From the NCBI GenBank assembly GCA_964440235.1, contig CAYTQI010000003.1:1599-65598 (forward strand): 64,000 nucleotides of DNA. Reading direction: 5' to 3'. Shown piece by piece: positions 8,544 to 61,551 of the stretch (the first letter of the stretch is position 1; the number at the start of each line of letters is the position of its first letter). The translations under genes and the position numbers were made by a program. Under the pieces are notes generated by a model that did no database searches, was not told where the DNA came from, and worked only from the letters and a program-made list of their open reading frames with translations. The DNA is from an uncultured Planctomycetia bacterium. GTDB lineage: Bacteria > Omnitrophota > Gorgyraeia > JABMRN01 > RBG-13-46-9.

Positions 8544-8735
8544 CTATTTCCGGCTTTTCAGCGTATCTTTTAACTCGCTTAATCCGGCAAAAATCGCGAT
8601 AAGCCCGCCGGCTATAAGCAGGGCCGGTATGCCGGCTCTCAGCATAAAAAGAAATTCGTACCACCAGGCAATGAGCATAATAAGCCCCACAAAAACTGAC
8701 AGGGCGCCTATCGCGATACTTAAAGTCTTACCCAT
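8544..8735 (-). CDS. small membrane protein (63 aa, two predicted TM helices)
   Basis: Hydrophobic ORF MGKTLSIAIGALSVFVGLIMLIAWWYEFLFMLRAGIPALLIAGGLIAIF; no homology recognised. Confidence 0.4.
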   Translation of the reverse strand: MGKTLSIAIGALSVFVGLIMLIAWWYEFLFMLRAGIPALLIAGGLIAIFAGLSELKDTLKSRK

Positions 8736-15341: not shown

Positions 15342-15908
15342 TTACCTTTTAAACTTTCCCATGAGCTCGGCTTCCGCGATGACCCGTCCCTTTATAGCGT
15401 CCAAAAGAGCTTTTTTGGTAAGCCCGGGTTTCAAATTTAATTTCGTCCCGAGCGCGTAAAGTTTAAAAAAATACCTGTGCGCCGCGCCCGGCGGCGGATA
15501 TGGCCCTCCGTAACCTGTGCTCCCGAAACTGGTCATGCCCTGCATGGAACCGTCCGGTAAAAGGCCGTCTTTTTTTATTTTTTCCGGGAGGCCTTTTTTA
15601 TCCGCGGGAATATTATATAAAACCCAGTGAACCCACGTCCCCATGGGCGCGTCAGGATCGTCTGATATAAGCGCGAAGCTTTTTGTATCCGCCGGCGCCG
15701 AGCTCCATTCAAGCGGCGGTGAAATGTCCTCGCCTTCACCGGTATATTTATCCGGTATAAATTCCCCGTTTTTGAAAACCGGGCTCGTTAATTCAAGCGC
15801 CATAACACCACCCCCTGCCGTTACGGTAAAAATCAAAATATAAAATCCGAGTAAAAAACGAAATCCCGCGCCGCCGGGTATAAGCGGCGGGATAAACTTC
15901 AAAGTCAT
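15342..15908 (-). CDS. YbhB/YbcL family Raf-kinase-inhibitor-like protein (PEBP), probably periplasmic
   Basis: PEBP signature DPDAP...HWVLYNI...GPYPPPG..HRYFFKLYAL; N-terminal hydrophobic signal-like segment. Confidence 0.8.
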   Translation of the reverse strand: MTLKFIPPLIPGGAGFRFLLGFYILIFTVTAGGGVMALELTSPVFKNGEFIPDKYTGEGEDISPPLEWSSAPADTKSFALISDDPDAPMGTWVHWVLYNIPADKKGLPEKIKKDGLLPDGSMQGMTSFGSTGYGGPYPPPGAAHRYFFKLYALGTKLNLKPGLTKKALLDAIKGRVIAEAELMGKFKR

Positions 15909-15909
15909 A

Positions 15910-16917
15910 TCAAGGCCACCGGTGCTGATCGCCCTTTACATTACATTCAACATCGGTAATAGCGTCCCCTTTGAATATCATGGTATAATCCTTGCCTTTC
16001 CCGCTGCCCGAAGGGCAGCTATGCCACTTCTCGTTTCTAAGATACTTTCTTTCCGAAAGGGCATCCAGGCGTTCCTCATCGCTCATATCCGCCAGGGAAT
16101 CTGTTTCATTTAAAATATACCCCACCGCTGCGGCAAAAATCGCCTTCTGGTTGGCAAGGCACAACTCATTTTGCGTGCTTGAACGGGCTTTCATGTAATT
16201 CGGTATGGCTATCATCATCAAAAGTCCGACAATGGCGGTTATAACCAGTATTTCAAAAACAGTAAACCCCGACGCGGTATAAATTATATCCTTACCGAGC
16301 CGCCTTATGTTTTTTACACGCAACCCGAAGGCGTTTTTTATGCTCTTGATACCCATATCCCCTACGCTTTCCACCCCCTTGCCCATGATCTTTGGCGATA
16401 TAACAGCTATAACCTTATCGGCGAGGCGGGCCTTCAGAAAGGAAGCGATAACACGCGAACCGCCCTCCACAAGTATTTTTCTCATTCCTCTCTTATAAAG
16501 TATACGGATAATCGCGTTCAAGTCAATATGGCCGTTTTTCGCGGCCGGTAAAACAATAATTTCAATTCCGGCGTTTTCAAAGTACTTTATTTTACCGACC
16601 GGGGCCGCAGGTGTCGTGATAATCATTGTTTTCGCGAGATCGGTTTTTTTCACGACGCGCGCGCTCTCCGGCACGCGAAGCCTGCTGTCAATAATAACCC
16701 TGGCTGGATTTTTCCCCTTAGCAAGGCGGACGGTAAGAGACGGGTCGTCGTTCAGGACAGTTTCTATCCCCACGATAACGGCATCGTTTTTCGCGCGTAA
16801 GGCATGGGCGAATTTCCGTGAGCGCGGGGCGCTTATCCACTTTGACGAGCCGTCGGGAGCGGCTATTTTTCCGTCAAGCGTCTGAGCGAATTTTACCGTT
16901 ATGTAAGGCCTTTTCAT
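15910..16917 (-). CDS. chimeric ORF: RibD C-terminal-type reductase domain (aa 1-217) continuing in-frame into a type IV pilin/pseudopilin-like N-terminal methylation motif plus about 100 aa pilin-like C-region
   Basis: The N-terminal half looks like RibD_C/DHFR-like (VKFAQTLDGKIAAPDG...VEGGSRV). At aa 218 the classical prepilin signature GFTVFEILVITAIVGLLMMIAIPNY begins, with no in-frame ATG/GTG/TTG between the domains. ATG at 16915-16917 confirmed. Confidence 0.55.
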   Translation of the reverse strand: MKRPYITVKFAQTLDGKIAAPDGSSKWISAPRSRKFAHALRAKNDAVIVGIETVLNDDPSLTVRLAKGKNPARVIIDSRLRVPESARVVKKTDLAKTMIITTPAAPVGKIKYFENAGIEIIVLPAAKNGHIDLNAIIRILYKRGMRKILVEGGSRVIASFLKARLADKVIAVISPKIMGKGVESVGDMGIKSIKNAFGLRVKNIRRLGKDIIYTASGFTVFEILVITAIVGLLMMIAIPNYMKARSSTQNELCLANQKAIFAAAVGYILNETDSLADMSDEERLDALSERKYLRNEKWHSCPSGSGKGKDYTMIFKGDAITDVECNVKGDQHRWP

Positions 16918-17189
16918 TATTGAAAGCTATAGTGTTTTCTCACCGGATTCCTTATGTCCCATACACAGCTCAGGCCTTTCGGGAACGTAACAAAATCACC
17001 CGGGCCGAAGTTTACGTTTTTTCCGTCTTTCGTTTCGACGCTAACTTTTCCCTCCAGGATGTAACACATTTCCGTATCATCATAATGCCATTCAAAACGT
17101 GATATTTCTTTTTCCCATACCGGCCACGAAAAAACTCCCATTTCCTTAAGTTTTTTTTCGGATAATTTTTCAACCCTTATCTGTTCCAT
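16917..17189 (-). CDS. small cupin-fold protein (cupin_3/DUF861-like)
   Basis: 90 aa with the cupin beta-barrel motif (EWHYDDTEMCYILEGKVSV...GPGDFVTFPKG). Confidence 0.6.
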   Translation of the reverse strand: MEQIRVEKLSEKKLKEMGVFSWPVWEKEISRFEWHYDDTEMCYILEGKVSVETKDGKNVNFGPGDFVTFPKGLSCVWDIRNPVRKHYSFQ

Positions 17190-19523: not shown

Positions 19524-20285
19524 TTATTTTATTTCCAGGTCGTTTTTATAGGTTCTCTGTTTGGCCAGCTCCCAGGAATATTCGTAAAGGTGGAGCCCCT
19601 TGGAGCAGGCCACGATCTCCCCGTTTTCCACCCCTATTTCGTCCGCCATATATTGTTTCACGAGTTCAAGCCCGCCGAGATTTGACGGAAATCCTCCCCA
19701 AAGGTCCCATGAGCGAAAATACAGAAAAAAGTGCAGTTTTCCATATCGCACACGTGTGTCTATTATACGCAGGCACGGCGGGTCCTCGAGCATTATGTCT
19801 GAGGGCATGCCTATTTCCATGACCGCCTGGTTTGTCCCGAACCCCTGTGCCTTGTAGATTTTTATGACTTCCTCAACCTGGTTGCATTGAAGGGGCATTT
19901 CTTTAATCATTTTTTTCCCGTTAATTTTTGTTTCGATTTTCGCCTTCGGGTCCACCAGCCTCTCTCCATAGGTATAATCCTCGGTACTGGTCTTCTGGCT
20001 CGTGAGAAGGTAGGACAGGTACTGTTGTATATAATTCATGTCGGTAGGGGCGGGTATCGCGGAACCTTCCGGCATGAGCGGGATTATCTGATGGGACGGA
20101 TTTTTGACCCGTACGGTAATGAAATCAAATTCAAGCCGCTTTTGTCCCGCGTAACTTCCTCGGTCGATCCTGTAAACAAAACCGTGCTGCAGTATTTCCG
20201 ACAGGCACCTGAACCAGGCGTCATCAAGGTCAATCGCCTCTATATAAACCGGATTCAGGGCTTTTTCGCTTTTACTTTTTTTCAT
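19524..20285 (-). CDS. divergent thymidylate synthase (ThyA-fold) family protein, possibly archaeal/methanogen-type thymidylate synthase or a pyrimidine hydroxymethylase
   Basis: 253 aa. The ThyA catalytic core is conserved in position: PPCLRIIDTRVRYGKLHFFLYFRSWDLWGGFPSNL matches the canonical PCH...QFYV..GKLSCQLYQRSxDxxLGxPFNI (nucleophile Cys, RSxD). The rest is strongly divergent from bacterial ThyA. ATG at 20283-20285 confirmed. Confidence 0.6.
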   Translation of the reverse strand: MKKSKSEKALNPVYIEAIDLDDAWFRCLSEILQHGFVYRIDRGSYAGQKRLEFDFITVRVKNPSHQIIPLMPEGSAIPAPTDMNYIQQYLSYLLTSQKTSTEDYTYGERLVDPKAKIETKINGKKMIKEMPLQCNQVEEVIKIYKAQGFGTNQAVMEIGMPSDIMLEDPPCLRIIDTRVRYGKLHFFLYFRSWDLWGGFPSNLGGLELVKQYMADEIGVENGEIVACSKGLHLYEYSWELAKQRTYKNDLEIK

Positions 20286-45279: not shown

Positions 45280-47427
45280 TTATTTTTCCTTTAATCCCAT
45301 CAAAACCGCTATCTCCTCATACACCTCTTCGGGTTTAATTGCCTTCATACAACTGTTGCGCTTGGCGCAACGGCTGTGATAGCACGGGCCGCACTTGAAT
45401 TTTTTTCTTAAAACTACGTGTTTTTTTTCGAACGGCGGCAGGTGCCTTTTCGGGTCGGTCGGCCCGAAAAGCGCGACAAAAGGAGTACCGACGCCCGCGG
45501 CCACGTGCAGCGGAGCGCTATCAACACACAGGACAAGATCGCACCTTTTTACCAGGGCCGCAAAATAAAGTATGTTCGTCCTGCCAATGGCGTCTATAGG
45601 TTTACACCTGGCGCGTGCCAAAAATTTATTCGCGAGAGGGCGTTCTTTTTCGAGGCCTGTCAGCAGGACTCGAATACCGAAGTTCAATGCGAGTTTGTTG
45701 CAAACCTCGGCAAAATATTCCGCCGGCCACAGTTTTGTATTCCAGCCGGCGCTCGCGCCGAGGCTAATGGCTATAATTTTTTGCCCGTCTTTCACCCAAT
45801 GGGACTTCAGGAAATTATCCGCCCATTCCTGATCTTCTTTTGAAAGGCAAATTTCCGGGCGCTTATCCATTCTGTATATACCCAGAAGATTCAGCACCTT
45901 TAGCTGGTGTTCCACCGGGTCAACGGGAAAACCTGAATCCCTGATTTTCCTGTTTAACAAAAAACTCATTTTCCCGTTGTCGTAACCGTACCTCTTCGGC
46001 ACGCACGCCATAAACGCGAGCATGTGGCTTTTTTTGTTGTTCTGAAAATCGATTGATATGTCAAAATTTTCGGCGTGAAGTTTTTTCAGGACACGCAGGA
46101 AACCCGCCGGGGAAGCGTCCCTGCCCTTGAAATCGCATATGATTATGTCGTCTATAAAATTGAGATTCGCGAGAACCCCCCTGTTTTCCACGCCAAGCAG
46201 AACTTTTATCTTCGCTTTCGGAAACTTCTTTCTTATGGCTCGAAGCGACGGAACAGCCAGGATAACGTCCCCCAGCGCCCCTATCTTTATGACAAGTATA
46301 TTCATACTCGAGGACGCTTCTTCATAAAGATCCAGTGTAGATTCCATTATGCTTTTTGTGCCGTATTCCTGTTTTAAAAGTTTTTCTGATTCGTTTTTGA
46401 TGTCGCTTTTTAAATTTTCATTTCTGTACAAACCGATTATCGCTTTCGCCGCCTCGCCCGGTTCTTCGCCTGAAATCAGGAAAGCTTTCTTGTTATCCCG
46501 CGCGTAATCTTTTATCCATTCAGCGCGCGTCGTAAACACCGGCACCCCTCCGGCCCAGGCACGCAAAAAAAGTTTCGGGGATGTGTACGCATCCGCGTTA
46601 AAATGCATGAACAAATCCAGGCCGGATATGGATTCCGATACTTTCTCGCCGGGCAAAAGAGTGACAACGCCTTCGAGCGAATACCGCCTTACGAGAAGCC
46701 TGAATTTTTCCAATTCCCTTTTTTGGCTTGTCAGCGCGCTATTAATCAAAAAAACCCTCATATTATATATTGTCCTGGAAATAATCGAAATTGTTTTTAC
46801 AAAATTTTCCGCCGCTTCCTGCGATGTAAGCGGCAAATTCACCCCAATATCAAAATACTTACCTCGTTCCACTGCGTCAGTGGAAAGAGGGGTACTCTTT
46901 CCACTGACGCAGTGGAACGAGGGGTTTTTCATGGAATTGAACTCCTGCGTGCCGGCAAACGGTGGTATAACGCGTATTTTGCCTCTGTGAATAAGGCCTT
47001 TTTCCATAAAGTACCTGGCAAAGCTTTCACAAGAACAGATTACGCGTTTTGCCCAAAATTGAGCCCTTGATCCCAACCCCCTTCCGCAAAAACCGTATAC
47101 CGTAGAAACAAATGTGCGTTCGGTAATGCGGCTTGCAAAAAATGATATGAGAGCCGAAGCGGGGCATCTCGCGTGTACAATGCGTATATCTTCTTTTCGA
47201 ATAATTTGTGACAGCTTAAAAATTGCCGCAGGAATCAGGAAAATATTCGCCGGAACCCCGAGAGCGTAATGACGCGCCCCGACTTCATCGATTTTTTTCA
47301 CGAGTTCACTTTTTGGGGAAGCCACGACAATCTTATGCCCGTTGAGAGCGAGAAAACGCGTGGAAACAATGACGTCGTCGGCGGCATCGCTCGAATCTAA
47401 CTTCGATATTACCTGTAGTATATTCAT
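45280..47427 (-). CDS. two-domain protein: N-terminal GT4-like glycosyltransferase fused to a C-terminal GT9 heptosyltransferase-like domain
   Basis: 715 aa continuous ORF. aa 1-370 are GT-B/GT4-like; aa 375-715 are GT9 (GALGDVILAVPS, SLGASAGWNTKLW, VDSAPLHVAAG). It contains a 61-bp perfect palindrome inserted in-frame (encoding SFHCVSGKSTPLSTDAVERG). Confidence 0.7.
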   Translation of the reverse strand: MNILQVISKLDSSDAADDVIVSTRFLALNGHKIVVASPKSELVKKIDEVGARHYALGVPANIFLIPAAIFKLSQIIRKEDIRIVHARCPASALISFFASRITERTFVSTVYGFCGRGLGSRAQFWAKRVICSCESFARYFMEKGLIHRGKIRVIPPFAGTQEFNSMKNPSFHCVSGKSTPLSTDAVERGKYFDIGVNLPLTSQEAAENFVKTISIISRTIYNMRVFLINSALTSQKRELEKFRLLVRRYSLEGVVTLLPGEKVSESISGLDLFMHFNADAYTSPKLFLRAWAGGVPVFTTRAEWIKDYARDNKKAFLISGEEPGEAAKAIIGLYRNENLKSDIKNESEKLLKQEYGTKSIMESTLDLYEEASSSMNILVIKIGALGDVILAVPSLRAIRKKFPKAKIKVLLGVENRGVLANLNFIDDIIICDFKGRDASPAGFLRVLKKLHAENFDISIDFQNNKKSHMLAFMACVPKRYGYDNGKMSFLLNRKIRDSGFPVDPVEHQLKVLNLLGIYRMDKRPEICLSKEDQEWADNFLKSHWVKDGQKIIAISLGASAGWNTKLWPAEYFAEVCNKLALNFGIRVLLTGLEKERPLANKFLARARCKPIDAIGRTNILYFAALVKRCDLVLCVDSAPLHVAAGVGTPFVALFGPTDPKRHLPPFEKKHVVLRKKFKCGPCYHSRCAKRNSCMKAIKPEEVYEEIAVLMGLKEK
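46862..46922. repeat. 61-bp perfect palindromic element, copy 1: 28-nt arms CCTCGTTCCACTGCGTCAGTGGAAAGAG around a 5-nt centre, inside the GT4-GT9 fusion gene
   Basis: Seen directly: cctcgttccactgcgtcagtggaaagag-gggta-ctctttccactgacgcagtggaacgagg. Shares the 19-nt core TTCCACTGCGTCAGTGGAA and its reverse complement with copy 2. The host ORF reads through it in-frame. Confidence 0.85.
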
Positions 47428-47492: not shown

Positions 47493-49493
47493 TTAAACGC
47501 CCAGCCGCCACATGTGCATGTATACATCGTGCATGTGTCTTTGTGGCGGGCGTTTCCCGAGTTTTTCTAAATTTTCGCATATCGCTTTCGAAATTTCATC
47601 GGGTTCGACAATCGTTATGTATCCTTTTTTTTCTAAACCATTCAGCATTCTTTCAAATTTTCCAGCCTTTGCCGGGATTTTGAAAAATTTCTTTTTGAAA
47701 TTCTGTATTCGGGACGGATTTTTTTTTCTGGAATTCAAACGAAAAACAATAACTGATTTTCCGCTCTGTACGGCTTCGGAAACCATGGAAGCGCTCTCGC
47801 CGGAAACAACCACCGCGTCACAGAGGCCTAAAATTCCGTCCACCGCGCGAGGAATGTTTTTTTCATTCGCTATAACTAAAAACCCGCAACGCTTTTCCGA
47901 TAATAACCGCTCCTTTACCGCTTTTTCCGCTTGAGCCGGAGTTCTCCGCGAAGTTGTAAATAAAATATCCGCGTCCGCTATTTCGGAAGCATTGATAACA
48001 CCGTTCAGAACTTTTTCCGTTATTTCCGGTGTTAAAGTAAAATCTGAATTATCTCCACCTAAGAGAACTCCGATTCTTTGCGGGTTTTTTAGACGCGCTA
48101 AATCGGAAATTTTCCCCGCGGCTGAATTCATTCGCTCCTCGTCTATCAGGTTTGGCACGATTTCCGTTCTTATCACATGGTCCCGGGCTCGCCCGATTAT
48201 TCGGTCGTGGCGCGGCAGGACAACCATGTCAAACTTGTCGAATCCCGGTATTGAGGGATTCATTATCGCGGCGCTTTTGGCATTATTTTCCACGGAAAAA
48301 AATCTGTTAACAGCCGCCGTGCCCGAACCGCAACTGATTACTATATCAGCGTATTTTCCCATCAATTCATTGTAACAACTTTCCGTAAGGCAGAACTTGA
48401 GGCAACGCATGCAACCCTGGCAGCGTTTTCCGGAAAAAATAGAACAAAATTTAAGCAACGCTTTGGTTGTTTCATTTTTGAACCTGATATCCACCACTTC
48501 CACCCGCGTGTCTTCTTCCCTGTAATCATCTTTTTTCCTGTACCGCTTCAGCTCCCGGCAAACAGCCAGGGACTGGTTAAGATGGCCGGCTTTCCCGTCA
48601 TTCAATACTACAACCTTTTTAAGCGACGACGCTTTCCATCTCTTGTGGAGCCATAACCACTGATCGGGATACATTGTAACGTATTTTTCCAGGAGTTTAT
48701 TGTATTTTTCCAGATACGGCTTTATGTCCTCGCCCTTTTTAATTCTGATAGGTTCGCCTACCATTAACCTGTGATAAGGCCCTTTTACGCGCGCCATAAA
48801 AGCAGGCAATATAAGGGCGCCTGTTTTTGCGGCTATTCTCACTGTCCCGGGCGCCGTGGCGGCCGGCCTTCCGAAAAACTCAATTTGCTCGCCCGTTTTA
48901 CCGGCGTTTTGATCGCCCAGCATTCCTATTATTTTGCCCTCATGCAACGCCTTCACGATATACTTTATCGTGATCCCTTTTGTAACAACGGTAAGGCCCT
49001 TTGACCGGCGAAGCCTGTTCAAAAGATTATCCAGCCTTTTCATGTTTTGTTCCCGTGCCAGGACAATCAGCGGCAAGCCTATCAGGGCGCTTACCACGCC
49101 GGAAAGTTCCCAGTTTCCAAAATGCGCCGTCAAAAATATCACTCCATCTGGATGTCCCTCGATTTTATAGAAATTTTCGCCGCCCACTATTTCAACATGC
49201 TTATCTATATACTTTTTGTCTACTTTTGTGAGCGAAATAATTTCAAAAAAAACCTGGGTGAGCCCCTGGTATACTTTCCTGGTAAGTTTTTTAAGCTCAG
49301 CCGGGGATTTATTGCCGGAAAAAGCGGCTCTCAGGTTCGCATAGGCAATAATTCTTCTCGGCCTGTTCAAAAAATACACGATTATCGAACAACGCCTCGC
49401 CAGCCATAACGTAAATTTCATGGGCAGCAGATAAAAAATCAGGCCAAGCGCCGTAACCAGGCACGCGCATATGTAATCAAGCAAGGATCGCAT
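47493..49493 (-). CDS. lpxL: lipid A biosynthesis lauroyl/myristoyl acyltransferase (LpxL/HtrB family) fused to an ELM1/DUF1022 domain
   Basis: N-terminal TM plus LPLAT HFGNWE motif; the C-terminal roughly 370 aa match the mitochondrial-fission ELM1-like family (VVVLNDGKAGHLNQSLAV...). Confidence 0.7.
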   Translation of the reverse strand: MRSLLDYICACLVTALGLIFYLLPMKFTLWLARRCSIIVYFLNRPRRIIAYANLRAAFSGNKSPAELKKLTRKVYQGLTQVFFEIISLTKVDKKYIDKHVEIVGGENFYKIEGHPDGVIFLTAHFGNWELSGVVSALIGLPLIVLAREQNMKRLDNLLNRLRRSKGLTVVTKGITIKYIVKALHEGKIIGMLGDQNAGKTGEQIEFFGRPAATAPGTVRIAAKTGALILPAFMARVKGPYHRLMVGEPIRIKKGEDIKPYLEKYNKLLEKYVTMYPDQWLWLHKRWKASSLKKVVVLNDGKAGHLNQSLAVCRELKRYRKKDDYREEDTRVEVVDIRFKNETTKALLKFCSIFSGKRCQGCMRCLKFCLTESCYNELMGKYADIVISCGSGTAAVNRFFSVENNAKSAAIMNPSIPGFDKFDMVVLPRHDRIIGRARDHVIRTEIVPNLIDEERMNSAAGKISDLARLKNPQRIGVLLGGDNSDFTLTPEITEKVLNGVINASEIADADILFTTSRRTPAQAEKAVKERLLSEKRCGFLVIANEKNIPRAVDGILGLCDAVVVSGESASMVSEAVQSGKSVIVFRLNSRKKNPSRIQNFKKKFFKIPAKAGKFERMLNGLEKKGYITIVEPDEISKAICENLEKLGKRPPQRHMHDVYMHMWRLGV

Positions 49494-54645: not shown

Positions 54646-56643
54646 TCATGTATTTTCTTCCTTGGGCAACGACCTCGATGTATATTTGCACTCGGGAAAC
54701 TTCGTGCACCCGTAAAAAAACCCGCGTTTTGAGCGCCTTTCTATAAGTTCCCCGTCGCATCCGGGATTGGGGCATTTCACGCCTGTCGTAATGGATTTGG
54801 CAAATTTGCATTTTGGAAAATCGGAACAGCTTAAAAATTTTCCGCGCCTGCCCCATTTAATGATCATGGGCTTACCGCACAATTCACAAATCTCGTCGGT
54901 TTTTATGCCTTCTTTTTTTATGCTTTTCATATTTTTCTTGGCCATATCCACGCTGTGCATAAAAGGGCTGTAAAAGCCTTTTAACACTACGAGAGAATCG
55001 ATTTTCCCTTCTTCGATGCCATCAAGCTCTTCTTCCATTTTCGCCGTGAATTTAACATCCATTATTTTAGGGAAATGCTTTACAAGAAGGCTGTTCGTAA
55101 TTTCGCCTAATTCCGTGGGTGAAAGGTAACCCCTCATTCGTTTTACGTAATTACGCATTATGATAGTGTAAATAATCGGCGCGTAAGTGGATGGACGGCC
55201 TATCCCGTTTTCCTCCAACGCCTTTACCAGCGTGGCGTCGGAATAACGTGCCGGGGGTTTTGTAAAATGCTGGGATGGAACGAGTTTTAAAAGATTCAGG
55301 TGTTCCCCGACTTTTAATAGCGGCATCTTCCATTCGGACAGGCGCCTTTCCCCTTCTTTCTGTGTTTCAGAAGGGGTATATAAAATCGTGAAACCGTCAA
55401 AAACCACTCTTGTCCCGGATGTTTTAAAAAGGTAGGGGCCTGATTCTATAAAAACGGTATTTACCGAATATACCGCTTTCACCATCTGACTCGAGACAAA
55501 CCTCTTCCATATGAGTTCATATAACTTTAGTTGCTCCGGCGTTAAAAAATCTTTCAGTGTTTCCGGATTTCTTAAAGGTACTGTCGGCCTGATGCATTCA
55601 TGGGCCTCCTGGGCACTTTTTCGCGATTTATACACATTCGGTTTTGCGGGATAATACTTTTCGCCGTAAGTCTTTAATATATACTTTTTTGCTGCTTCCT
55701 GCGCGTCGCGCGAGACCCTTACGGAATCCGTTCTCATATACGTTATGAGACCCACACCCTCTTTATCTTCTAATTCCACGCCCTCATACAGGGATTGCGC
55801 TATGCGCATGGTTTTATTTACGGAAAAACGCAATTTGTTAAAAGCGTCCTGCTGCATTTTTGAAGTCGTGAAAGGCGCCTGTGGTGAACGTCTTTTTTTG
55901 CCTTCTTTTGTGTTTGATACAATAAATTCATTCTTTTTTATATTGTCCAGCGCGGAAGCGGCCTCTTTTTCGCTTGTAATGCGAAAATCTTTACCGTCAA
56001 TTTTGTCCAGGCTGGCCGTAAAACTGCGTTTCTCGTCAACCTTTTTTCTCAAATGCGCTTCTATTTCCCAGTATTCCTGCGGTTTGAATTTCCGTATCTC
56101 CGCCTCTTTTTCCACAACAAGCCGCACGGCTACGGATTGCACCCTGCCCGCGGAAAGGCCCCTGGTAATTTTTTTCCAGAGAAGAGGGCTCAAGCTGTAA
56201 CCCACAATTCTGTCCAGGATCCGGCGCGCCTGCTGGGCGCTTACAAGATTTTTATCAATGTCATGCGGGCGCTCAAAAGCTTTTGTTACAGCGGCGTGAG
56301 TGATTTCATCAAAAGTTACCCTGTATACTTTTTTTCCCCTGCCAAGTTCTCTTTTGAGGTGCCAGCTTATCGCCTCGCCTTCCCTGTCAGGATCAGCGGC
56401 GAGATATATGGCATCGCTATTTTTTATTTCTTTTTTTAGCTTTGCCAGGTATTTTCTTCTTTCGGGAATAACTATATACTCCGGCCTGAAATTATCTTCG
56501 ACATCGATTCCCATTTTGCTTTTCGGCAGGTCTATCATGTGGCCCATGCTCGAAAGCACTACATATCCCGAACCAAGTATCTTGTTGATCGTTTTGGATT
56601 TTGCGGGTGACTCCACTATGACAATTGCTTTTCTTTTAGGCAT
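54646..56643 (-). CDS. topA: DNA topoisomerase I
   Basis: TOPRIM N-terminus (IVIVESPAKSKTI, DPDREGEAISWHL), catalytic Tyr region, C-terminal Cx2C zinc-ribbon repeats. Confidence 0.9.
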   Translation of the reverse strand: MPKRKAIVIVESPAKSKTINKILGSGYVVLSSMGHMIDLPKSKMGIDVEDNFRPEYIVIPERRKYLAKLKKEIKNSDAIYLAADPDREGEAISWHLKRELGRGKKVYRVTFDEITHAAVTKAFERPHDIDKNLVSAQQARRILDRIVGYSLSPLLWKKITRGLSAGRVQSVAVRLVVEKEAEIRKFKPQEYWEIEAHLRKKVDEKRSFTASLDKIDGKDFRITSEKEAASALDNIKKNEFIVSNTKEGKKRRSPQAPFTTSKMQQDAFNKLRFSVNKTMRIAQSLYEGVELEDKEGVGLITYMRTDSVRVSRDAQEAAKKYILKTYGEKYYPAKPNVYKSRKSAQEAHECIRPTVPLRNPETLKDFLTPEQLKLYELIWKRFVSSQMVKAVYSVNTVFIESGPYLFKTSGTRVVFDGFTILYTPSETQKEGERRLSEWKMPLLKVGEHLNLLKLVPSQHFTKPPARYSDATLVKALEENGIGRPSTYAPIIYTIIMRNYVKRMRGYLSPTELGEITNSLLVKHFPKIMDVKFTAKMEEELDGIEEGKIDSLVVLKGFYSPFMHSVDMAKKNMKSIKKEGIKTDEICELCGKPMIIKWGRRGKFLSCSDFPKCKFAKSITTGVKCPNPGCDGELIERRSKRGFFYGCTKFPECKYTSRSLPKEENT

Positions 56644-57535
56644 ATTCCTCTTTTATAAAATTTTCGCCCGGCAAAGTTTTAATCAGCTTCTTAAGCTCAA
56701 GCCTAAGCAGCGTTTCCGATATTTTATTTACCGGTATGTTTATTATTTTCGATATTTCATCGATTGACCTGGGCTCGTTTCCCAAAATTTCGAATATTTT
56801 CGCCTCATCCGCCGACATGGACCTTACAATACCGGGTTTTGGTAAACCCGGTATTGTAAGGTTATTGCTGGTTTTCTTAATGTTAATGACGTAGCTGAGT
56901 TCCTCGAGTATATCCCCGACGTTTTCGACAAGCTTGGCGCCTTCCTTTATGAGGCGGTTTGTGCCGCTTGATTTGGCAGAGCTTACATTGCCGGGCATAG
57001 CGAAAACCTCTCTTCCCTGTTCAAGGGCAAAATTGGCCGTTATTAAAGCGCCGCTTTTTTGAGGGGCTTCTATCACAATTACGCCTTTTGACATGCCGCT
57101 TACTATCCTGTTTCTCCTTGGAAAATTCAGTTTAAGCGGCGGCGTCTCCGGCGAATATTCCGATATGACCGCCCCGTTTCTCACAATTTCGCGGTAAAGC
57201 TTGGCGTTTTCCGGAGGATATATATTATCGTGCCCGCTTCCCAGAACCGCTATCGTTCTCCCGCCGGCCTTTATAGCGCCTCTATGCGAGGCGGTATCGA
57301 TACCAAGAGCCATTCCGCTGACAATGGTTATTCCCCGCGCGGCCAGGTCAAATGAAAGTTTTTCGCACTGCCGGAGCCCGTAATCCGTGGCGCGCCTGGT
57401 GCCAACGATGGCTATCGCGTTTGAATCAGAGGCAAGGATTTCACCGTTAACAAAAAGCGCTTCCGGTGCGTTGTATATATGCCTCAAGATATCGGGATAT
57501 TCCCCGTTTTCCTTTTCTATTCTTCTTACAGCCAT
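56636..57535 (-). CDS. dprA: DNA processing protein DprA (Smf)
   Basis: Rossmann-like DprA core (IVGTRRATDYG...IVSGMALGIDTASH...IAVLGSGHD) plus a C-terminal winged-helix-like segment. Confidence 0.85.
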   Translation of the reverse strand: MAVRRIEKENGEYPDILRHIYNAPEALFVNGEILASDSNAIAIVGTRRATDYGLRQCEKLSFDLAARGITIVSGMALGIDTASHRGAIKAGGRTIAVLGSGHDNIYPPENAKLYREIVRNGAVISEYSPETPPLKLNFPRRNRIVSGMSKGVIVIEAPQKSGALITANFALEQGREVFAMPGNVSSAKSSGTNRLIKEGAKLVENVGDILEELSYVINIKKTSNNLTIPGLPKPGIVRSMSADEAKIFEILGNEPRSIDEISKIINIPVNKISETLLRLELKKLIKTLPGENFIKEEYA

Positions 57536-57541
57536 TCCGTC

Positions 57542-58180
57542 CTAACCCTTTCCGGCACGGTGCAGGCAATCCATGAATCTCTCCAGAAGCGCAGGGTCAA
57601 ACTTTCTGCCGGACTCTTTTTTCATGATACTCTTTGCCTTTTCGACAGAATACGCGCCGCGGTAAGCCCTTTTGCTTGTAAGGGCATCATACGCGTCAGC
57701 TATAGCCAAAATACGTGAAGCCAACGGTATATCCTCGCCTTTTAATCCGTCGGGATAGCCGGTACCGTTATAATTTTCATGATGATGCCTTACCGTGGAA
57801 ACAATAGGGCCAAAAAACTTGAGCGGTTTTATTATTTGAGCGCCGAGATCGGCATGTTTCTGGACCTCCTTATATTCCTTACTGTCAAGCGAACCGTTCT
57901 TAAGTAGTATACTTTCCTTTATTCCTACTTTGCCGATGTCATGCAGTATCGCCGCGAGCCTTATGTATTCCACTTCTTTTTTATAAAGCCCCAGAGATTT
58001 AGCCAGCATTACAGCGTAGTTTGAAACTTTTACCGAATGCCTTTTTGTATAAGGGTCCCTTGATTCCGTGAGATTGATAAGAGTGTGAATTGATTGCATA
58101 TACGCCCTGTGAACGGGTTTTGTGGAATTGGAAAACCTGCTGTAAAGCTGCTTGAGGTGTTTATCAGTTTCAGCGTACAT
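57542..58180 (-). CDS. HD-GYP domain protein (c-di-GMP phosphodiesterase family)
   Basis: HD motif AAILHDIGK, HHENYNGTGYP (GYP motif), IADAYDALTSKRAYR. Confidence 0.75.
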   Translation of the reverse strand: MYAETDKHLKQLYSRFSNSTKPVHRAYMQSIHTLINLTESRDPYTKRHSVKVSNYAVMLAKSLGLYKKEVEYIRLAAILHDIGKVGIKESILLKNGSLDSKEYKEVQKHADLGAQIIKPLKFFGPIVSTVRHHHENYNGTGYPDGLKGEDIPLASRILAIADAYDALTSKRAYRGAYSVEKAKSIMKKESGRKFDPALLERFMDCLHRAGKG

Positions 58181-58679
58181 TTTTTAAAATCCCTTCTACT
58201 TCATCGGCAACTTTTCCCACGGACATCGCGGAAGTATCTAAATGAAAATCGGCCGGCTCATAAAAATGCTTCCTGGATTCCAGAAGTTTTTTAATTTTTT
58301 CCAACGGGTCCCGAACGTTCAGAAGCGGTCTGTGAACGTATTTTTTTGTCCTTTCCAGAATAATCCCCGGTTCCGCCCGGAGGCAAAAAACCAGCCCCTT
58401 CTTTTTAAGATTCTTCAGGTTTTCCGGATCTATGACAACCCCTCCGCCGGCGTCAATCACGGCGTTTTCCATGAGCGAGACCTCCTTAACAACCTGTTTT
58501 TCCAGCTTCCTGAAATACGCCTCGCCTTTTCCGGAAAATATCTCACGTATAGAAATACCTTCTTTTTTTTCGATAAGCCGGTCGGTGCTCGCGTATCTCA
58601 TGTTGAGCCGCGCGGATAATACCTTCGCAACTTCCGTTTTGCCAACGCCCATAAAACCGACTAACACTATGTTTCGCAT
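58170..58679 (-). CDS. aroK: shikimate kinase
   Basis: P-loop VGFMGVGKT and shikimate-binding ISTGGGVV-like region (DAGGGVV). Confidence 0.85.
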   Translation of the reverse strand: MRNIVLVGFMGVGKTEVAKVLSARLNMRYASTDRLIEKKEGISIREIFSGKGEAYFRKLEKQVVKEVSLMENAVIDAGGGVVIDPENLKNLKKKGLVFCLRAEPGIILERTKKYVHRPLLNVRDPLEKIKKLLESRKHFYEPADFHLDTSAMSVGKVADEVEGILKNVR

Positions 58680-58731
58680 GATAATATTCAGCGGATAACG
58701 AATAGTTTTTTTATGCGCTAAACGCTACACG

Positions 58732-59859
58732 TTAGAATTTTTTTAAACTTTTTTTATACCCTTCGTAATTCCGCTTCATTTCCGTCAGTGAATCGCCGCC
58801 GAATTTTTCCGTAAACGCGCGCGCCACTTCCATGGCCGCGGCGCTTTCGGCTATAACGCCGGCCGAGGGCACAACGCACACGTCGGAACGTTCCACCTGG
58901 GCTTTGGCCTTTTTTTTGGTCCTGATATGAACCGAATCAAGCGCTTTCATGAGCGTTGCTATCGGTTTCATGGCCGCGCGAAAAACGATATCCTCGCCAT
59001 TCGTAATACCGCCCTCTATCCCGCCGGCAGCGTTGGTTTTCCTGTAAAACTTCCCGGATTTCGCGCTGAAAAATATTTCGTCATGCACGGCGCTTCCACG
59101 CTCGCGGGCCGCGGCAAAACCCCTTCCTATTTCGACGCCTTTTATCCCGGGAATCGACATGACTGCCCCGGCCAGCGCGCCGTCAAGCCGGCGATCATGC
59201 TGCGTGTAACTTCCAAGGCCTGACGGGGCCCCTTTTACGATTACCTCAAAAATACCTCCCAGGGTATCGCCGGAACTGCGCGCCTTTTCGATTTCGAGGC
59301 ACATGAGGCGCGAGGCCTCTTTTTCGGCGCATCTGACAGGTGAATTTTCGGCGCGTTTTTTTATTATATCAAATGAAAATCTTTTATCCGAGGTAACGCG
59401 CCCTATCGAGACAACATGGCTTAAAAACTTTATGCCGAATTCCCTTAAAAGAATTTTGCCGACGGCCCCCGCGGCAACCTTAGAGGCGGTTTCGCGCGCC
59501 GAGGCCCTCTCTAAAATATTCCTTATATCTTTAGCTCCGAACTTAAGCGCGCCGGCTAAATCAGCGTGGCCGGGCCGCGGCCTGCTTATAGACGGAAGAT
59601 CCTCTATCTTAAAATCTTTATTGGCGACAAAAAGCGCTATCGGGCTCCCTATGGTCATTCCTTTCCGGGTGCCGGAAAGGACCTCTACCCTGTCTTTTTC
59701 CATACGCATCCTCATTCCCCGGCCGAAACCTTTCATGCGCCGGGAAAGTTCGTTATTAATGAACTTGGCATCAAGCTTAAGCCCGGCGGGAACACCTTCC
59801 ACGATTGAGACGAGCGCTTTCCCGTGCGACTCTCCCGCGGTCAGGTAACGTATACTCAT
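58732..59859 (-). CDS. aroC: chorismate synthase
   Basis: N-terminal YLTAGESHG, three chorismate-synthase signature blocks (GRSSARETA-like RASARETA, GGISNG-like GGITNG). Confidence 0.9.
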   Translation of the reverse strand: MSIRYLTAGESHGKALVSIVEGVPAGLKLDAKFINNELSRRMKGFGRGMRMRMEKDRVEVLSGTRKGMTIGSPIALFVANKDFKIEDLPSISRPRPGHADLAGALKFGAKDIRNILERASARETASKVAAGAVGKILLREFGIKFLSHVVSIGRVTSDKRFSFDIIKKRAENSPVRCAEKEASRLMCLEIEKARSSGDTLGGIFEVIVKGAPSGLGSYTQHDRRLDGALAGAVMSIPGIKGVEIGRGFAAARERGSAVHDEIFFSAKSGKFYRKTNAAGGIEGGITNGEDIVFRAAMKPIATLMKALDSVHIRTKKKAKAQVERSDVCVVPSAGVIAESAAAMEVARAFTEKFGGDSLTEMKRNYEGYKKSLKKF

Positions 59860-59929
59860 GTCCGGCTCCTTTCTGCGTACTCTAACGAATAACGCATGTA
59901 TCGGCGCTTGAACGCAACTGCCCCCTGCG

Positions 59930-60703
59930 TTAATATACTAAAAACAACCTATTTAGTATTTTTTCCCCGAAAAAAATCGCCACTACGGCCGCCAGCGAAA
60001 GATACGGGCCATAGGGAATAATATCTTTTCCTTCTTTTAATTTCAAAATAACGCCCGCGAAAGACCCGAAAAATGGCGCCAAAAAAAATGTGAAAATCGC
60101 GAGTTTCCATCCCAGAAACGCGCCTATCATCGCGAGCAGCTTAACATCCCCTCCGCCCATTGCTTCTTTTTTAAAAATAAATTCTCCGATATAACCCAGA
60201 ATATAAATACTCCCCCCGCCGGCGACGACCCCAAGGGCCGAGTTTAGAAGGGACGAAAAAACACCTGTTTTATTCATAAGCGGCGGATATAAAGCCGATA
60301 AAAAAAGCCCAAGAACTATTCCCGAAAGCGTTATTTCATCGGGTATCTCGTGAATCTTGAGATCCACGAACGATACAACGATAAGGGCGCCCGTAAAATA
60401 AAACAAAATTAGGTATTTAGGCGTAAATCCGAAATGTAAAAAAAGTAAAGCGCACATAATCCCCGAAAGAATCTCCACCGCGACGTATCGCGGTGAAATC
60501 CTGCCGCCGCATGAACGGCACTTTCCCCTGAGGAAAATGTAGCTCAATACAGGTATATTGTCAAACCAGCGTATGGCAGTGCCGCACAGCGGGCACCTCG
60601 AACGCGGGAATACGATCGATTCCTTTCTGGGAAGTCTGTAAATACACACATTCATGAAACTTCCGAAAATCGCCCCAATGATAAACAGAAAAATTATAAT
60701 CAT
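59930..60703 (-). CDS. pilD: type IV prepilin peptidase (A24 family, PilD-like)
   Basis: N-terminal Cys tetrad (CPLCGTAI...CRSCGGRI), catalytic Asp-containing TM segments, polytopic. Confidence 0.85.
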   Translation of the reverse strand: MIIIFLFIIGAIFGSFMNVCIYRLPRKESIVFPRSRCPLCGTAIRWFDNIPVLSYIFLRGKCRSCGGRISPRYVAVEILSGIMCALLFLHFGFTPKYLILFYFTGALIVVSFVDLKIHEIPDEITLSGIVLGLFLSALYPPLMNKTGVFSSLLNSALGVVAGGGSIYILGYIGEFIFKKEAMGGGDVKLLAMIGAFLGWKLAIFTFFLAPFFGSFAGVILKLKEGKDIIPYGPYLSLAAVVAIFFGEKILNRLFLVY

Positions 60704-61551
60704 TTTTTAATGTTCGCCAGCAGTACTTTACGCATGATTCCGAGAGGGGCGTCTTTTTTTGTCCAATGCTCGAAAGAGCGGCCCGCCTGGTAAAGAAGCA
60801 TGTTTAATCCGTCGGAAGCGTTCGCGTTCCGGGCACGGGCCTCTTTTATGAGAGCGGTCTCTCTCGCATAAATCAAATCCAAAACAAAGTGCTTCCTATC
60901 AATATACTTGTAATTAAAAAGCCATTCGTCGGCGCTTTTGGCGCCGCATGGCGTGGCATTAACAATAAGGTCCGTTTTTGATATAAAATCATCGTACTGC
61001 GTTTTGTCCTGCGCGATGGTTATCACGGCATCGCCCCACTGTTTCCGGGAAAAGACATCCGCCAGCTTCACCGCCTTTTTAGTGTCAATGTCCGCGATAA
61101 CGATCCTTTTCGCGCCCAAAGTTATAAGCCCGTAGATAACGGCCCTGGCCGCTCCGCCGGCGCCGAAGACAAAAGCGCTTTTTCCCTCAATATTAAAATT
61201 CAGATCCCCTTCGTTAAATCCGCAAAGGACCTTTATGAAGCCCTGGTAGTCCGTGTTGTAACCCCTGAGAATGCCGCCGTCATGCAATACGGTATTCAGC
61301 GCGCCTATGGCTTTCGCGGCCGCAGTCGGCTCTTCGGTAAATTTTAACGCTTTTTCCTTATAAGGCACCGTAATGTTACAGCCGGAGATTTCGCCTTTTC
61401 GTAATTTCGCGAAAAAATCCTTCAGCCCTTCCCCGGAAATGTCAAAAAGAAGATACTCCGCGTCAATGCCAAGCGCCTTAAAAGCAGCATTGTGCATCGC
61501 GGGCGAGAGCGAATAGCTTATATCCCTGCCGAGAAGCCCGTATTTTTTCAT
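60700..61551 (-). CDS. aroE: shikimate dehydrogenase
   Basis: LLGRDISYSLSPAMHNAAF substrate-binding N-terminus, GAGGAARAV NADP Rossmann motif. Confidence 0.85.
   Translation of the reverse strand: MKKYGLLGRDISYSLSPAMHNAAFKALGIDAEYLLFDISGEGLKDFFAKLRKGEISGCNITVPYKEKALKFTEEPTAAAKAIGALNTVLHDGGILRGYNTDYQGFIKVLCGFNEGDLNFNIEGKSAFVFGAGGAARAVIYGLITLGAKRIVIADIDTKKAVKLADVFSRKQWGDAVITIAQDKTQYDDFISKTDLIVNATPCGAKSADEWLFNYKYIDRKHFVLDLIYARETALIKEARARNANASDGLNMLLYQAGRSFEHWTKKDAPLGIMRKVLLANIKK

What the first reader, a model, noticed from the sequence alone, without database searches (positions are those of the whole stretch)
15910..16917. RibD_C-type reductase fused in-frame to a type IV pilin-like methylation motif and pilin-like C-domain
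Residues 1-217 look like a complete RibD C-terminal/DHFR-like reductase domain. With no stop and no ATG/GTG/TTG in between, the ORF continues into SGFTVFEILVITAIVGLLMMIAIPNY (the canonical prepilin G-F-T-x-x-E hydrophobic segment) followed by about 100 aa resembling a small pseudopilin. A prepilin peptidase is encoded at 59930-60703, but it cleaves short leader peptides, not a 217-aa domain. As sequenced, this is either a novel membrane-anchored architecture (cytoplasmic reductase domain, TM helix, periplasmic pilin-like domain) or a frameshift or assembly join that hides a separate pilin gene.
Basis: partly seen in the sequence, partly recalled or inferred. Interest (0 to 1): 0.55.

Follow-up and report, generated by a model that had tools for sequence, protein, structure and literature searches.

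The report
Riboflavin reductase fused onto a pilin
In one lineage of uncultivated Omnitrophota bacteria, a small deletion joined a riboflavin-pathway reductase gene to the pilin gene next to it, so a whole 217-residue enzyme now sits where a pilin normally has a leader peptide of 6-30 residues; the fusion is real and kept by selection, and if the prepilin peptidase still cuts it, this is by far the longest pilin "leader" known.

Summary
A complete RibD_C reductase (residues 1-215) runs with no linker into a class III prepilin signal (G217|F218, E222) and a small pilin head.

It is not a sequencing or assembly artefact:
- The identical protein is on 10 independently assembled contigs.
- Five diverged orthologues (67-76% identity) keep the same in-frame junction and synteny.
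- The fused forms are monophyletic (96/100 bootstrap).
- Both halves are under purifying selection (dN/dS 0.10-0.19 and 0.13-0.33).

Sister Omnitrophota carry the ancestral state: separate ribD_C and pilin genes, adjacent or overlapping, with normal 4-12 aa leaders. One ~42-nt in-frame deletion explains the fusion.

Gly-1, Phe+1, Thr+2, Glu+5 and every residue invariant across the pilin family are retained. A bifunctional prepilin peptidase is encoded at 59930-60703.

Most likely mechanism (inferred, not shown): the protein inserts N-in, and the peptidase cuts at G217|F218, releasing a soluble reductase and a normal pilin.

Rivals: an uncleaved membrane-tethered enzyme, or a prepilin made separately from an internal ATG (M188) that is enriched in the fused clade.

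Verdict: a new variant of a known kind, of moderate interest.

The parts
15910..16917 (-). Whole fused ORF, 335 aa (RibD_C reductase, class III signal, pilin head); stop codon at 15910-15912
   Evidence: 100% identical to P0001, which is found on 10 contigs
16273..16917 (-). Residues 1-215: complete stand-alone RibD_C-type pyrimidine reductase domain (cytoplasmic)
   Evidence: Pfam PF01872 E=1.6e-54 over the full profile; TIGR00227 201.8 bits, above cutoff. Closest solved structures are 2AZN (E=1.4e-36) and 2B3Z. dN/dS 0.10-0.19
16267..16272 (-). Junction residues S216-G217. G217 is the -1 Gly of the prepilin cleavage site; the predicted scissile bond lies between 16267 and 16266
   Evidence: Gly-1 is invariant in all 6 fused orthologues while its codon varies synonymously (GGG/GGC/GGA). 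The fused loci lack the ~20-45 nt that encode the reductase tail, stop, start and leader in split loci
16195..16266 (-). Residues F218-Y241: hydrophobic alpha1N / transmembrane segment, with Glu+5 (E222) at 16252-16254
   Evidence: Only hydrophobic segment in the protein, KD 2.74. F+1, T+2 and E+5 are invariant. Helix 5-55 in the pLDDT-91 model
15913..16194 (-). Residues 242-335: alpha1C plus a small periplasmic pilin head, with three family-invariant cysteines (C253, C301, C325) and the C-terminal H-x-W-P
16354..16356 (-). In-frame ATG (M188), 29 codons before Gly-1: a candidate internal start that would give a prepilin with a basic 30-aa leader
   Evidence: Met occurs within residues 186-195 in 6/6 fused proteins, against 4/51 stand-alone and 9/61 bifunctional relatives. 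There is no SD at a proper spacing and no suppression of synonymous variation
59930..60703 (-). Bifunctional prepilin peptidase / N-methyltransferase (PilD type), the presumed processing enzyme
   Evidence: PF06750 E=1.7e-36 and PF01478 E=1.1e-21; CxxC...CxxC cysteines and GGGDVKL motif
16917..17189 (-). Upstream cupin gene (90 aa); its TAA stop overlaps the ATG of the fusion (TAATG), indicating operon context and translational coupling
15342..15908 (-). Downstream PEBP-family gene, starting 1 nt after the stop of the fusion; the same neighbour follows the separate pilin gene in split relatives

Best explanation
This is a genuine, old gene fusion, not an error. In the ancestor, as in sister Omnitrophota today, a stand-alone riboflavin-pathway pyrimidine reductase gene (ribD_C) was followed immediately by a small type IV pilin gene with a normal 4-12 aa leader. 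A deletion of about 42 nt removed the last 4-5 codons of the reductase, the stop codon(s), the pilin ATG and the leader, but kept the -1 Gly. The reductase therefore now occupies the position of the leader peptide. Proposed mechanism (inferred): the reductase folds in the cytoplasm. The hydrophobic alpha1N (residues 218-241) acts as an internal signal-anchor that SRP/Sec inserts N-in/C-out, placing the pilin head in the periplasm; this is the normal prepilin topology. The genome's PilD-type prepilin peptidase then cuts at G217|F218 on the cytoplasmic face. That releases a soluble reductase ending in ...YTASG and a normal 118-aa mature pilin that can be N-methylated and assembled. On this view the fusion persists because the peptidase regenerates the two original proteins; stoichiometric co-production may be a side benefit. 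Shown: the fusion is real, arose once, and both halves and the cleavage and assembly residues are under purifying selection. Inferred: the topology, and the cleavage of a precursor whose 'leader' is 217 aa. The confidence of 0.55 applies to the full mechanism including cleavage of the full-length protein; that the fusion is real and selectively maintained is about 0.95.
For: Not an artefact:
- The identical protein is on 10 contigs from independent samples and assemblers.
- Five orthologue clusters at 67-76% identity sit on 12 more contigs with conserved synteny, DUF900-cupin-fusion-PEBP-Nth-rSAM.

Single origin: the fused proteins form one clade, 96/100 bootstrap, nested in stand-alone Omnitrophota RibD_C.

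Ancestral state:
- L009, L010, L011, L017 and L023 have ribD_C followed by an orthologous pilin gene with short leaders (MKEG|FT, MNSRA|FT, MHTLNCKRG|FT, MRIRSGKG|FS, MNRGLSIKTNRG|LT). The genes overlap or lie 3 nt apart.
- In L023 the two genes are in the same frame, so one ~42-nt deletion suffices.

Selection:
- dN/dS is 0.10-0.19 for the reductase and 0.13-0.33 for the pilin, with dS 0.6-1.9.
- The pilin/reductase divergence ratio is similar in fused (1.48) and split (1.28) lineages, so constraint was not relaxed.

Processing and assembly residues:
- G-1, F+1, T+2 and E+5 are invariant in all six despite synonymous codon turnover.
- Every residue invariant across the fused and stand-alone pilins of alignment A2 is retained.
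- Literature: Gly-1 is 'absolutely critical' for cleavage; Glu5 is dispensable for cleavage but needed for filament assembly; alpha1N is buried in the filament core, so an uncleaved fusion could not assemble (PMC4471445).

Other support:
- The pilin fold is confirmed.
- A PilD with both domains is encoded in the window.
- Topology fits: one transmembrane segment, no N-terminal signal peptide, basic residues on the N-terminal side.
- Prepilins are inserted by SRP/Sec with the leader in the cytoplasm, where the peptidase active site lies (PMC10191384).
Against: No prepilin peptidase is known to remove anything longer than about 26-30 residues (PMC4471445), and my literature searches found no precedent for a folded N-terminal domain. 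Only one or two residues (S216, G217) separate the last beta-strand of the reductase (210-216 in the low-confidence model) from the scissile bond, so access to the membrane-embedded active site may be sterically hindered. Positions -2 to -5 lack the usual charged residues. The fused clade is enriched for an internal in-frame ATG, which hints that the functional prepilin might be made another way. No pilus assembly genes (PilB/C/M/N/O/Q) lie in the window, so whether the genome has them could not be checked. There are no protein-level data.
Confidence: 0.55

Rival explanations
1. Permanent membrane-anchored bitopic protein. The junction is not cleaved; the reductase works tethered to the inner face of the membrane, and the periplasmic pilin-like head has a new, non-filament role (for example docking to the pilus/T2SS platform, or sensing). 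This would be a true 'Rosetta-stone' functional link between the two halves.
For: The architecture and topology fit. There is almost no linker between the folded domain and the scissile bond. No long-leader precedent exists. The ribD_C-pilin adjacency is itself conserved across Omnitrophota, which could reflect a functional link.
Against: Gly-1 and the membrane-buried Glu+5 are invariant through dS ~1, and both matter specifically for cleavage and for filament assembly. All pilin-family invariant residues are kept, and the relative rate of the pilin half is unchanged compared with split lineages, so there is no sign of neofunctionalisation. No rationale is known for tethering a riboflavin-pathway reductase. 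Adjacent unrelated genes commonly overlap in compact genomes.
Confidence: 0.2
2. Two products from one ORF. The functional prepilin is translated separately from an internal in-frame ATG (M188; M193 in one orthologue). This gives a basic 25-30 aa leader within the known range for prepilin peptidases. The full-length protein mainly supplies the reductase, whether tethered or also cleaved.
For: All 6 fused proteins have a Met within residues 186-195 (5 at position 188; the one with L188 has M193). Only 4/51 stand-alone and 9/61 bifunctional relatives do, and position 188 is Leu in 41/51 and 61/61 of them. The resulting leader, MGIKSIKNAFGLRVKNIRRLGKDIIYTASG, is basic and resembles a type IVb leader in length.
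Against: No Shine-Dalgarno-like motif sits at a workable spacing in any orthologue. This is a weak argument, because only 1 of 7 real genes checked in the window has one. Synonymous variation is not suppressed upstream of M188 (pS 0.65-0.76 against a gene-wide 0.59). The Met enrichment amounts to one or two substitution events in a small clade and was noticed post hoc. The full-length fusion is still made in any case, because there is no stop codon.
Confidence: 0.2
3. Sequencing or assembly artefact, or a decaying pseudogene, that hides two separate genes.
For: Related genomes do have two separate genes. Fusions called in metagenome assemblies are often frameshift errors; other long hits in the pilin search (P0182, P0266) look like that.
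Against: In total 22 contigs from many samples and assemblers carry the fusion. Six orthologues at 67-76% identity have the same in-frame junction and a monophyletic origin. dN/dS is well below 1 in both halves. No alternative frame carries a leader or a start codon.
Confidence: 0.02

Closest known systems
Stand-alone Omnitrophota prepilins encoded directly downstream of ribD_C (e.g. L023 3667-4053, L011 6040-6414, L010 6657-7028; relatives P0121-P0128, P0270)
   Same: Orthologous mature sequence (43-51% identity). Same invariant residues: E5, three Cys, N-Q, C-P, H-x-W-P. Same genomic position between ribD_C and PEBP/Nth.
   Different: They have their own ATG and a 4-12 aa hydrophilic leader and are separate genes. 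In the window the leader is replaced by the whole reductase.
Prepilins with long leader peptides (type IVb pilins, Flp1, S. sanguinis PilE1/2)
   Same: Class III signal with Gly-1 followed by a hydrophobic alpha1N; the leader stays cytoplasmic and is removed by a PilD/TadV-type aspartic peptidase (PMC4471445, PMC10191384).
   Different: Known leaders are 6-26 aa (up to about 30), hydrophilic and unstructured. Here the N-terminal part is a 217-aa folded enzyme, roughly seven times longer, with only 1-2 linker residues.
Modular type IV pilins (e.g. S. sanguinis PilB/PilC, CofB; Raynaud et al. 2021, PMC8179133)
   Same: A pilin module fused to a functional non-pilin domain, arising by evolutionary 'grafting'.
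   Different: In modular pilins the pilin module is N-terminal and the extra module is C-terminal, exported and displayed on the filament. [quoted passage not shown]
Stand-alone RibD_C / Rib7-type pyrimidine reductases (M. jannaschii 2AZN; reductase domain of B. subtilis RibG 2B3Z)
   Same: Full-length, high-scoring match to the reductase domain. Same ~215-219 aa stand-alone format as in other Omnitrophota.
   Different: The short non-conserved C-terminal tail and the stop are replaced by a prepilin signal and a pilin. There is no deaminase domain, so the public name 'bifunctional RibD' given to orthologue P0005 is wrong.

Membership tests
Type IV pilin / class III signal peptide protein (IPR012902, PF07963) | Gly (or Ala) at -1, then ~21 mostly hydrophobic residues interrupted by Glu5 | tested here: met
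   G217|F218-T-V-F-E222, hydrophobic through Y241. Invariant in 6 orthologues. NCBIfam pilin models align from residue 216.
Type IV pilin / class III signal peptide protein (IPR012902, PF07963) | The signal is N-terminal, preceded only by a short (6-26/30 aa) hydrophilic leader | tested here: not met
   It is preceded by a complete 215-aa RibD_C domain plus 2 residues. The known range comes from PMC4471445.
Type IV pilin / class III signal peptide protein (IPR012902, PF07963) | Curated model score above threshold | tested here: not met
   PF07963 scores 10.2 bits against a cutoff of 21.2 on the C-terminal half, and gives no hit on the full protein. NCBIfam pilin models are all below cutoff. 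The stand-alone orthologues do carry precomputed PF07963 hits.
Type IV pilin / class III signal peptide protein (IPR012902, PF07963) | Lollipop fold: a long alpha1 helix packed against a small beta-sheet head | tested here: met
Type IV pilin / class III signal peptide protein (IPR012902, PF07963) | Cleaved (and N-methylated) by a prepilin peptidase and polymerised into a filament | not testable with these tools
   Only indirect evidence: PilD is encoded in the window, and Gly-1 and Glu5 are under purifying selection.
RibD_C pyrimidine reductase (PF01872 / TIGR00227) | Full-length match above the curated cutoffs | tested here: met
   PF01872 185.2 bits (cutoff 24.1), profile positions 1-196 of 197. 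TIGR00227 201.8 bits (cutoff 150.15).
RibD_C pyrimidine reductase (PF01872 / TIGR00227) | NADPH-dependent reduction of the ribosylamino-pyrimidine intermediate of riboflavin synthesis | not testable with these tools
   Inferred from homology to 2AZN and 2B3Z and from columns conserved among relatives. Activity and substrate were not tested.
Bifunctional RibD (deaminase + reductase; TIGR00326) | N-terminal cytidine/deoxycytidylate-type deaminase domain (PF00383) preceding RibD_C | tested here: not met
   No deaminase domain. The TIGR00326 match covers only profile positions 140-342. The public name of P0005 is therefore inaccurate.
Modular pilins (sensu Raynaud et al. 2021) | N-terminal pilin module with extra module(s) grafted C-terminally and exported | tested here: not met
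   The extra domain is N-terminal and cytoplasmic. Definition from PMC8179133.

The most novel reading that the evidence does not exclude
The prepilin peptidase processes a natural precursor whose 'leader peptide' is a complete, functional 24-kDa enzyme. In that case it acts as a polyprotein-maturation protease that releases both a cytoplasmic riboflavin-pathway reductase and a pilin from one translation product. This would stretch the class III signal-peptide concept from about 30 to 217 residues. It would also show that PilD-type enzymes tolerate bulky folded cargo directly next to the scissile bond, and give a natural template for engineering PilD-releasable fusions. A bolder version is that the conserved ribD_C-pilin pairing and fusion reflect a real functional coupling between flavin/pterin metabolism and this pilin.
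Probability: 0.45. Interest if true: 0.65.

Novelty: new variant of a known kind. Interest (0 to 1): 0.5.

Why it matters
Class III (prepilin) signal peptides are defined as N-terminal, with short unstructured leaders, and surveys of unusual pilin architectures have looked only for domains added after the pilin module. Here a folded enzyme has sat in the leader position through substantial divergence (dS ~1), while the residues needed for cleavage (Gly-1) and filament assembly (Glu5) stay invariant. This offers a natural, directly testable case for how much N-terminal cargo a prepilin peptidase and the SRP/Sec insertion route can handle. If it is cleaved, it is the longest known prepilin leader by about sevenfold and a rare bacterial example of two unrelated proteins matured from one precursor by a signal peptidase. 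If it is not cleaved, it is a new membrane-anchored reductase architecture. It also corrects public annotation: the orthologues are labelled 'bifunctional RibD' or carry only a RibD_C hit, so the pilin half goes unnoticed. The impact is limited by the narrow distribution (a single 50%-identity cluster in uncultivated Omnitrophota) and by the real possibility that the fusion is a tolerated accident.

Tried and rejected
1. The word-indexed homologue search with the pilin half alone returned nothing, although P0001 contains that sequence. I replaced it with the exhaustive HMMER scan and a profile search.
The single-protein scan of GTDB genomes worked.
3. The full-length AlphaFold run with 14 sequences was poor (pLDDT 55), so I used only its secondary structure. 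A composite alignment of reductases plus pilins misaligned the pilins and was discarded (A3).
5. Frameshift-hidden leader: the two other frames across the junction contain stops and no leader-like sequence. Rejected.
6. Conserved internal canonical start close to the junction: the codons at position 211 are ATA, ATA, ATA, GTA, ATG and GTG, so there is no conserved start. Rejected.
7. I looked for an SD motif or suppressed synonymous rate that would support initiation at M188. Neither was found, so that idea is kept only as a minor rival.
8. Other hits whose pilin part lies far from the N-terminus (P0129, P0137, P0144, P0156, P0182, P0266, P0146, P0181, P0212, P0249) were inspected for independent enzyme-pilin fusions. 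None qualifies: they are miscalled starts, read-through of tandem pilins, or a different repeat-module family.
9. Literature searches found no RibD-pilin fusion, no giant leader and no internal class III signal.

Full report
**What is in the sequence**

- The finding's coordinates hold one ORF on the minus strand, 15910-16917: 335 aa, ATG start, TGA stop.
- Residues 1-215 are a complete RibD C-terminal-type pyrimidine reductase. Pfam PF01872 gives E=1.6e-54 over profile positions 1-196 of 197. NCBIfam TIGR00227 gives 201.8 bits against a cutoff of 150.15.
- The nearest solved relatives are the M. jannaschii reductase 2AZN and the reductase domain of B. subtilis RibG, 2B3Z. There is no deaminase domain.
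- From residue 216 the pilin/pseudopilin models (ComGC, Myxococcus PilA, GspG) take over.
- The sequence there is S216-G217|F218-T-V-F-E222, followed by the only hydrophobic segment of the protein (218-241). There is no N-terminal signal peptide.
- No other frame across the junction encodes a leader or a start.
One detail needs adjusting: in-frame ATG (M188) and TTG (L199) codons do exist within the last strands of the reductase.

**It is not an artefact**

- The identical protein (P0001) is on 10 contigs from independent samples and assemblers.
- Five further clusters at 67-76% identity (336-343 aa) cover the whole query. They sit on 12 more contigs with the same neighbours: DUF900, cupin, fusion, PEBP, Nth, radical SAM, Na/Ca exchanger, MgtC, HAD, GH65.
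- One of these contigs is titled Candidatus Omnitrophota.
- The junction reads ...G(K/R)D(I/V/M)(I/V)YT(A/S/T)(S/A/G)-G|FT(V/L/I)FEI... in all six. The codons change synonymously: GGG/GGC/GGA for Gly-1, ACT/ACC for Thr+2.

**Where it came from**

- The next closest reductases are ~219-aa stand-alone proteins from Omnitrophota.
- In five of the six such loci examined, ribD_C is followed at once by an orthologous small pilin gene (123-131 aa). Their leaders are ordinary: MKEG|FT, MNSRA|FT, MNRGLSIKTNRG|LT, MRIRSGKG|FS, MHTLNCKRG|FT.
- These gene pairs overlap by 4 or 34 nt, or lie 3 nt apart. One locus (L020) has no pilin gene.
- The closest unfused sister (L023) has exactly the window's synteny. 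Its two genes are in the same frame, separated by TAATAA, so one ~42-nt deletion produces the fused junction.
- A neighbour-joining tree of the reductase part puts the six fused proteins in a single clade (96/100 bootstrap) nested among unfused ones. The fusion therefore happened once.
- In an exhaustive scan of 1.84 billion representative proteins, the pilin half found 2139 relatives. Only one representative (P0003) is a RibD_C fusion.
- The few other N-terminally extended hits are miscalled starts, read-through of tandem pilins, or a different repeat family.

**Both halves are maintained**

- Pairwise Nei-Gojobori estimates among the six give dN/dS of 0.10-0.19 for the reductase and 0.13-0.33 for the pilin half, with dS of 0.6-1.9.
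- The pilin-to-reductase divergence ratio is similar within the fused clade (1.48), within split lineages (1.28) and between them (1.45). Constraint on the pilin did not relax after the fusion.
- All residues invariant in the 16-sequence alignment of fused and stand-alone pilins are retained: Glu5, three Cys, N-Q, C-P and H-x-W-P. In the wider 86-sequence alignment A4 only T4, E7, C38 and C110 are strictly invariant, and the fusion keeps all four.
- A deeper alignment gave a confident model of the C-terminal 120 residues (pLDDT 91.3): a 51-residue alpha1 helix, two short helices and a beta-hairpin.

**How it most likely works**

- Established knowledge (PMC10191384; PMC4471445): prepilins are inserted by SRP/Sec with the leader in the cytoplasm. 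The peptidase cuts after Gly-1 at the cytoplasmic face. Gly-1 is critical for cleavage. Glu5 is not needed for cleavage but is needed for assembly. alpha1N is buried in the filament core.
- A cytoplasmic N-terminal domain is therefore topologically compatible with a prepilin.
- An uncleaved fusion could not enter a filament.
- Gly-1 and Glu5 are invariant through dS ~1, and the pilin head evolves as it does in split lineages.
- The window encodes a complete two-domain prepilin peptidase at 59930-60703, with CxxC...CxxC cysteines and a GGGDVKL motif.
- The LPS genes at 40-53 kb indicate a diderm cell with a periplasm.
- The best-supported model is therefore as follows. The full-length protein inserts N-in. 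The peptidase cuts at G217|F218. A soluble reductase and an ordinary mature pilin result, and the fusion is tolerated because processing regenerates the two ancestral proteins.
- The fusion, its single origin and the selection on it are shown. The topology and the cleavage are inferred.

**Reasons for caution, and the rivals**

- Known leaders are 6-26 aa, at most about 30. No precedent for a folded N-terminal domain turned up.
- Only one or two residues separate the last beta-strand of the reductase from the scissile bond, so access to the active site may be hindered.
- One rival is a permanently tethered reductase with a repurposed periplasmic domain.
- A second rival emerged from the data. 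All six fused proteins have an in-frame Met 24-29 codons before Gly-1. It is M188 in five; the sixth has L188 but M193.
- Among relatives, position 188 is Leu in 41/51 stand-alone and 61/61 bifunctional proteins. Any Met in residues 186-195 occurs in only 13/112 of them.
- Initiation at that Met would give a prepilin with a basic leader of about 30 aa, within the known range.
- Against this, there is no SD-like motif at a usable spacing, although real genes in this window mostly lack one too. Synonymous variation is not suppressed there either.
- The two routes are not mutually exclusive. The full-length protein is made in any case, because there is no stop codon.

**Comparison with what is known, and verdict**

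- The C-terminal half works like, and descends from, an ordinary type IV pilin. The whole protein fails the defining 'N-terminal signal with short leader' criterion and falls below the curated model thresholds.
- It is not a 'modular pilin' in the published sense, because those carry their extra modules C-terminally and export them.
- The N-terminal half is a bona fide stand-alone RibD_C reductase, not the 'bifunctional RibD' named in one public record.
- I rate it a new variant of a known kind.
- It is surprising to a pilus specialist and directly testable, but it is narrowly distributed and may be a tolerated accident. Interest is about 0.5.

Noticed in passing
window ~8544-8735 (-); L001 18183-18374: A 63-aa membrane ORF (MGKTLSIAIGALSVFVGLIMLIAWWYEF...) carries a precomputed Pfam hit to PF26391 (MamI, a magnetosome protein family). 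It is conserved next to the CBS and ribonucleotide reductase genes in fused and unfused Omnitrophota loci. Some Omnitrophota are magnetotactic, but no other mam genes were seen nearby.
   Followed up: no
proteins P0146, P0181, P0212, P0249 (not in the window): These large (528-614 aa) proteins carry 2-3 copies of the same pilin-head module (Cx[AS]N[QMK]RVL.GA.EMY.MD...CPDGG.Y...C..HG). The last copy is preceded by an internal 'AIAIPNF' hydrophobic helix but has no G|FTxxE cleavage motif. This is a pilin head reused in a non-pilin, multi-domain context.
   Followed up: partly
P0005 / L008 10001-11011 (GCA_049642705.1) and the other fused orthologues: Public annotation misses the fusion. NCBI names P0005 'bifunctional diaminohydroxyphosphoribosylaminopyrimidine deaminase/...reductase RibD', although it has no deaminase domain. 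Precomputed Pfam lists only RibD_C for all six fused clusters.
   Followed up: yes
window 19524-20285 (-) thyA; same relation in L005, L008, L009, L010, L011, L013, L014: A thymidylate synthase (ThyA) gene lies a few genes upstream of the RibD_C-type (DHFR-fold) reductase in every fused or split locus whose upstream flank was long enough to check. No folA was seen in these stretches. Whether this reductase also serves folate reduction is an open speculation.
   Followed up: no
window 47493-49493 (-): A 666-aa protein combines a lipid A biosynthesis acyltransferase domain (PF03279) with an ELM1/Mito_fiss_Elm1-like domain (PF06258). It sits inside an LPS-core cluster with LpxK, KdtA, several GT9 heptosyltransferases and a 715-aa GT4+GT9 fusion at 45280-47427.
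   Followed up: no
window 58170-61551 (-): The prepilin peptidase gene (59930-60703) is embedded among shikimate-pathway genes: aroE at 60700-61551 (overlapping it by 4 nt), aroC at 58732-59859 and aroK at 58170-58679. It is not next to any pilus assembly gene, and DprA lies at 56636-57535.
   Followed up: no
window codons 73-90, 127-141, 145-159 of the fusion ORF (about 16648-16701, 16495-16539, 16441-16485): Synonymous divergence among the six orthologues dips locally to 0.24-0.41 against a gene-wide 0.59. The cause is unknown; codon bias, RNA structure or an antisense element are possibilities. The dips are not near the junction or M188.
   Followed up: no
L012 2955-3986, L013 3809-4840; L020 3001-3660: Locus variants exist. 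One fused orthologue (P0002) lacks both the upstream cupin and the downstream PEBP gene, and its called start is probably too far upstream (343 aa). One unfused Omnitrophota relative (L020) has ribD_C with no pilin gene after it.
   Followed up: partly
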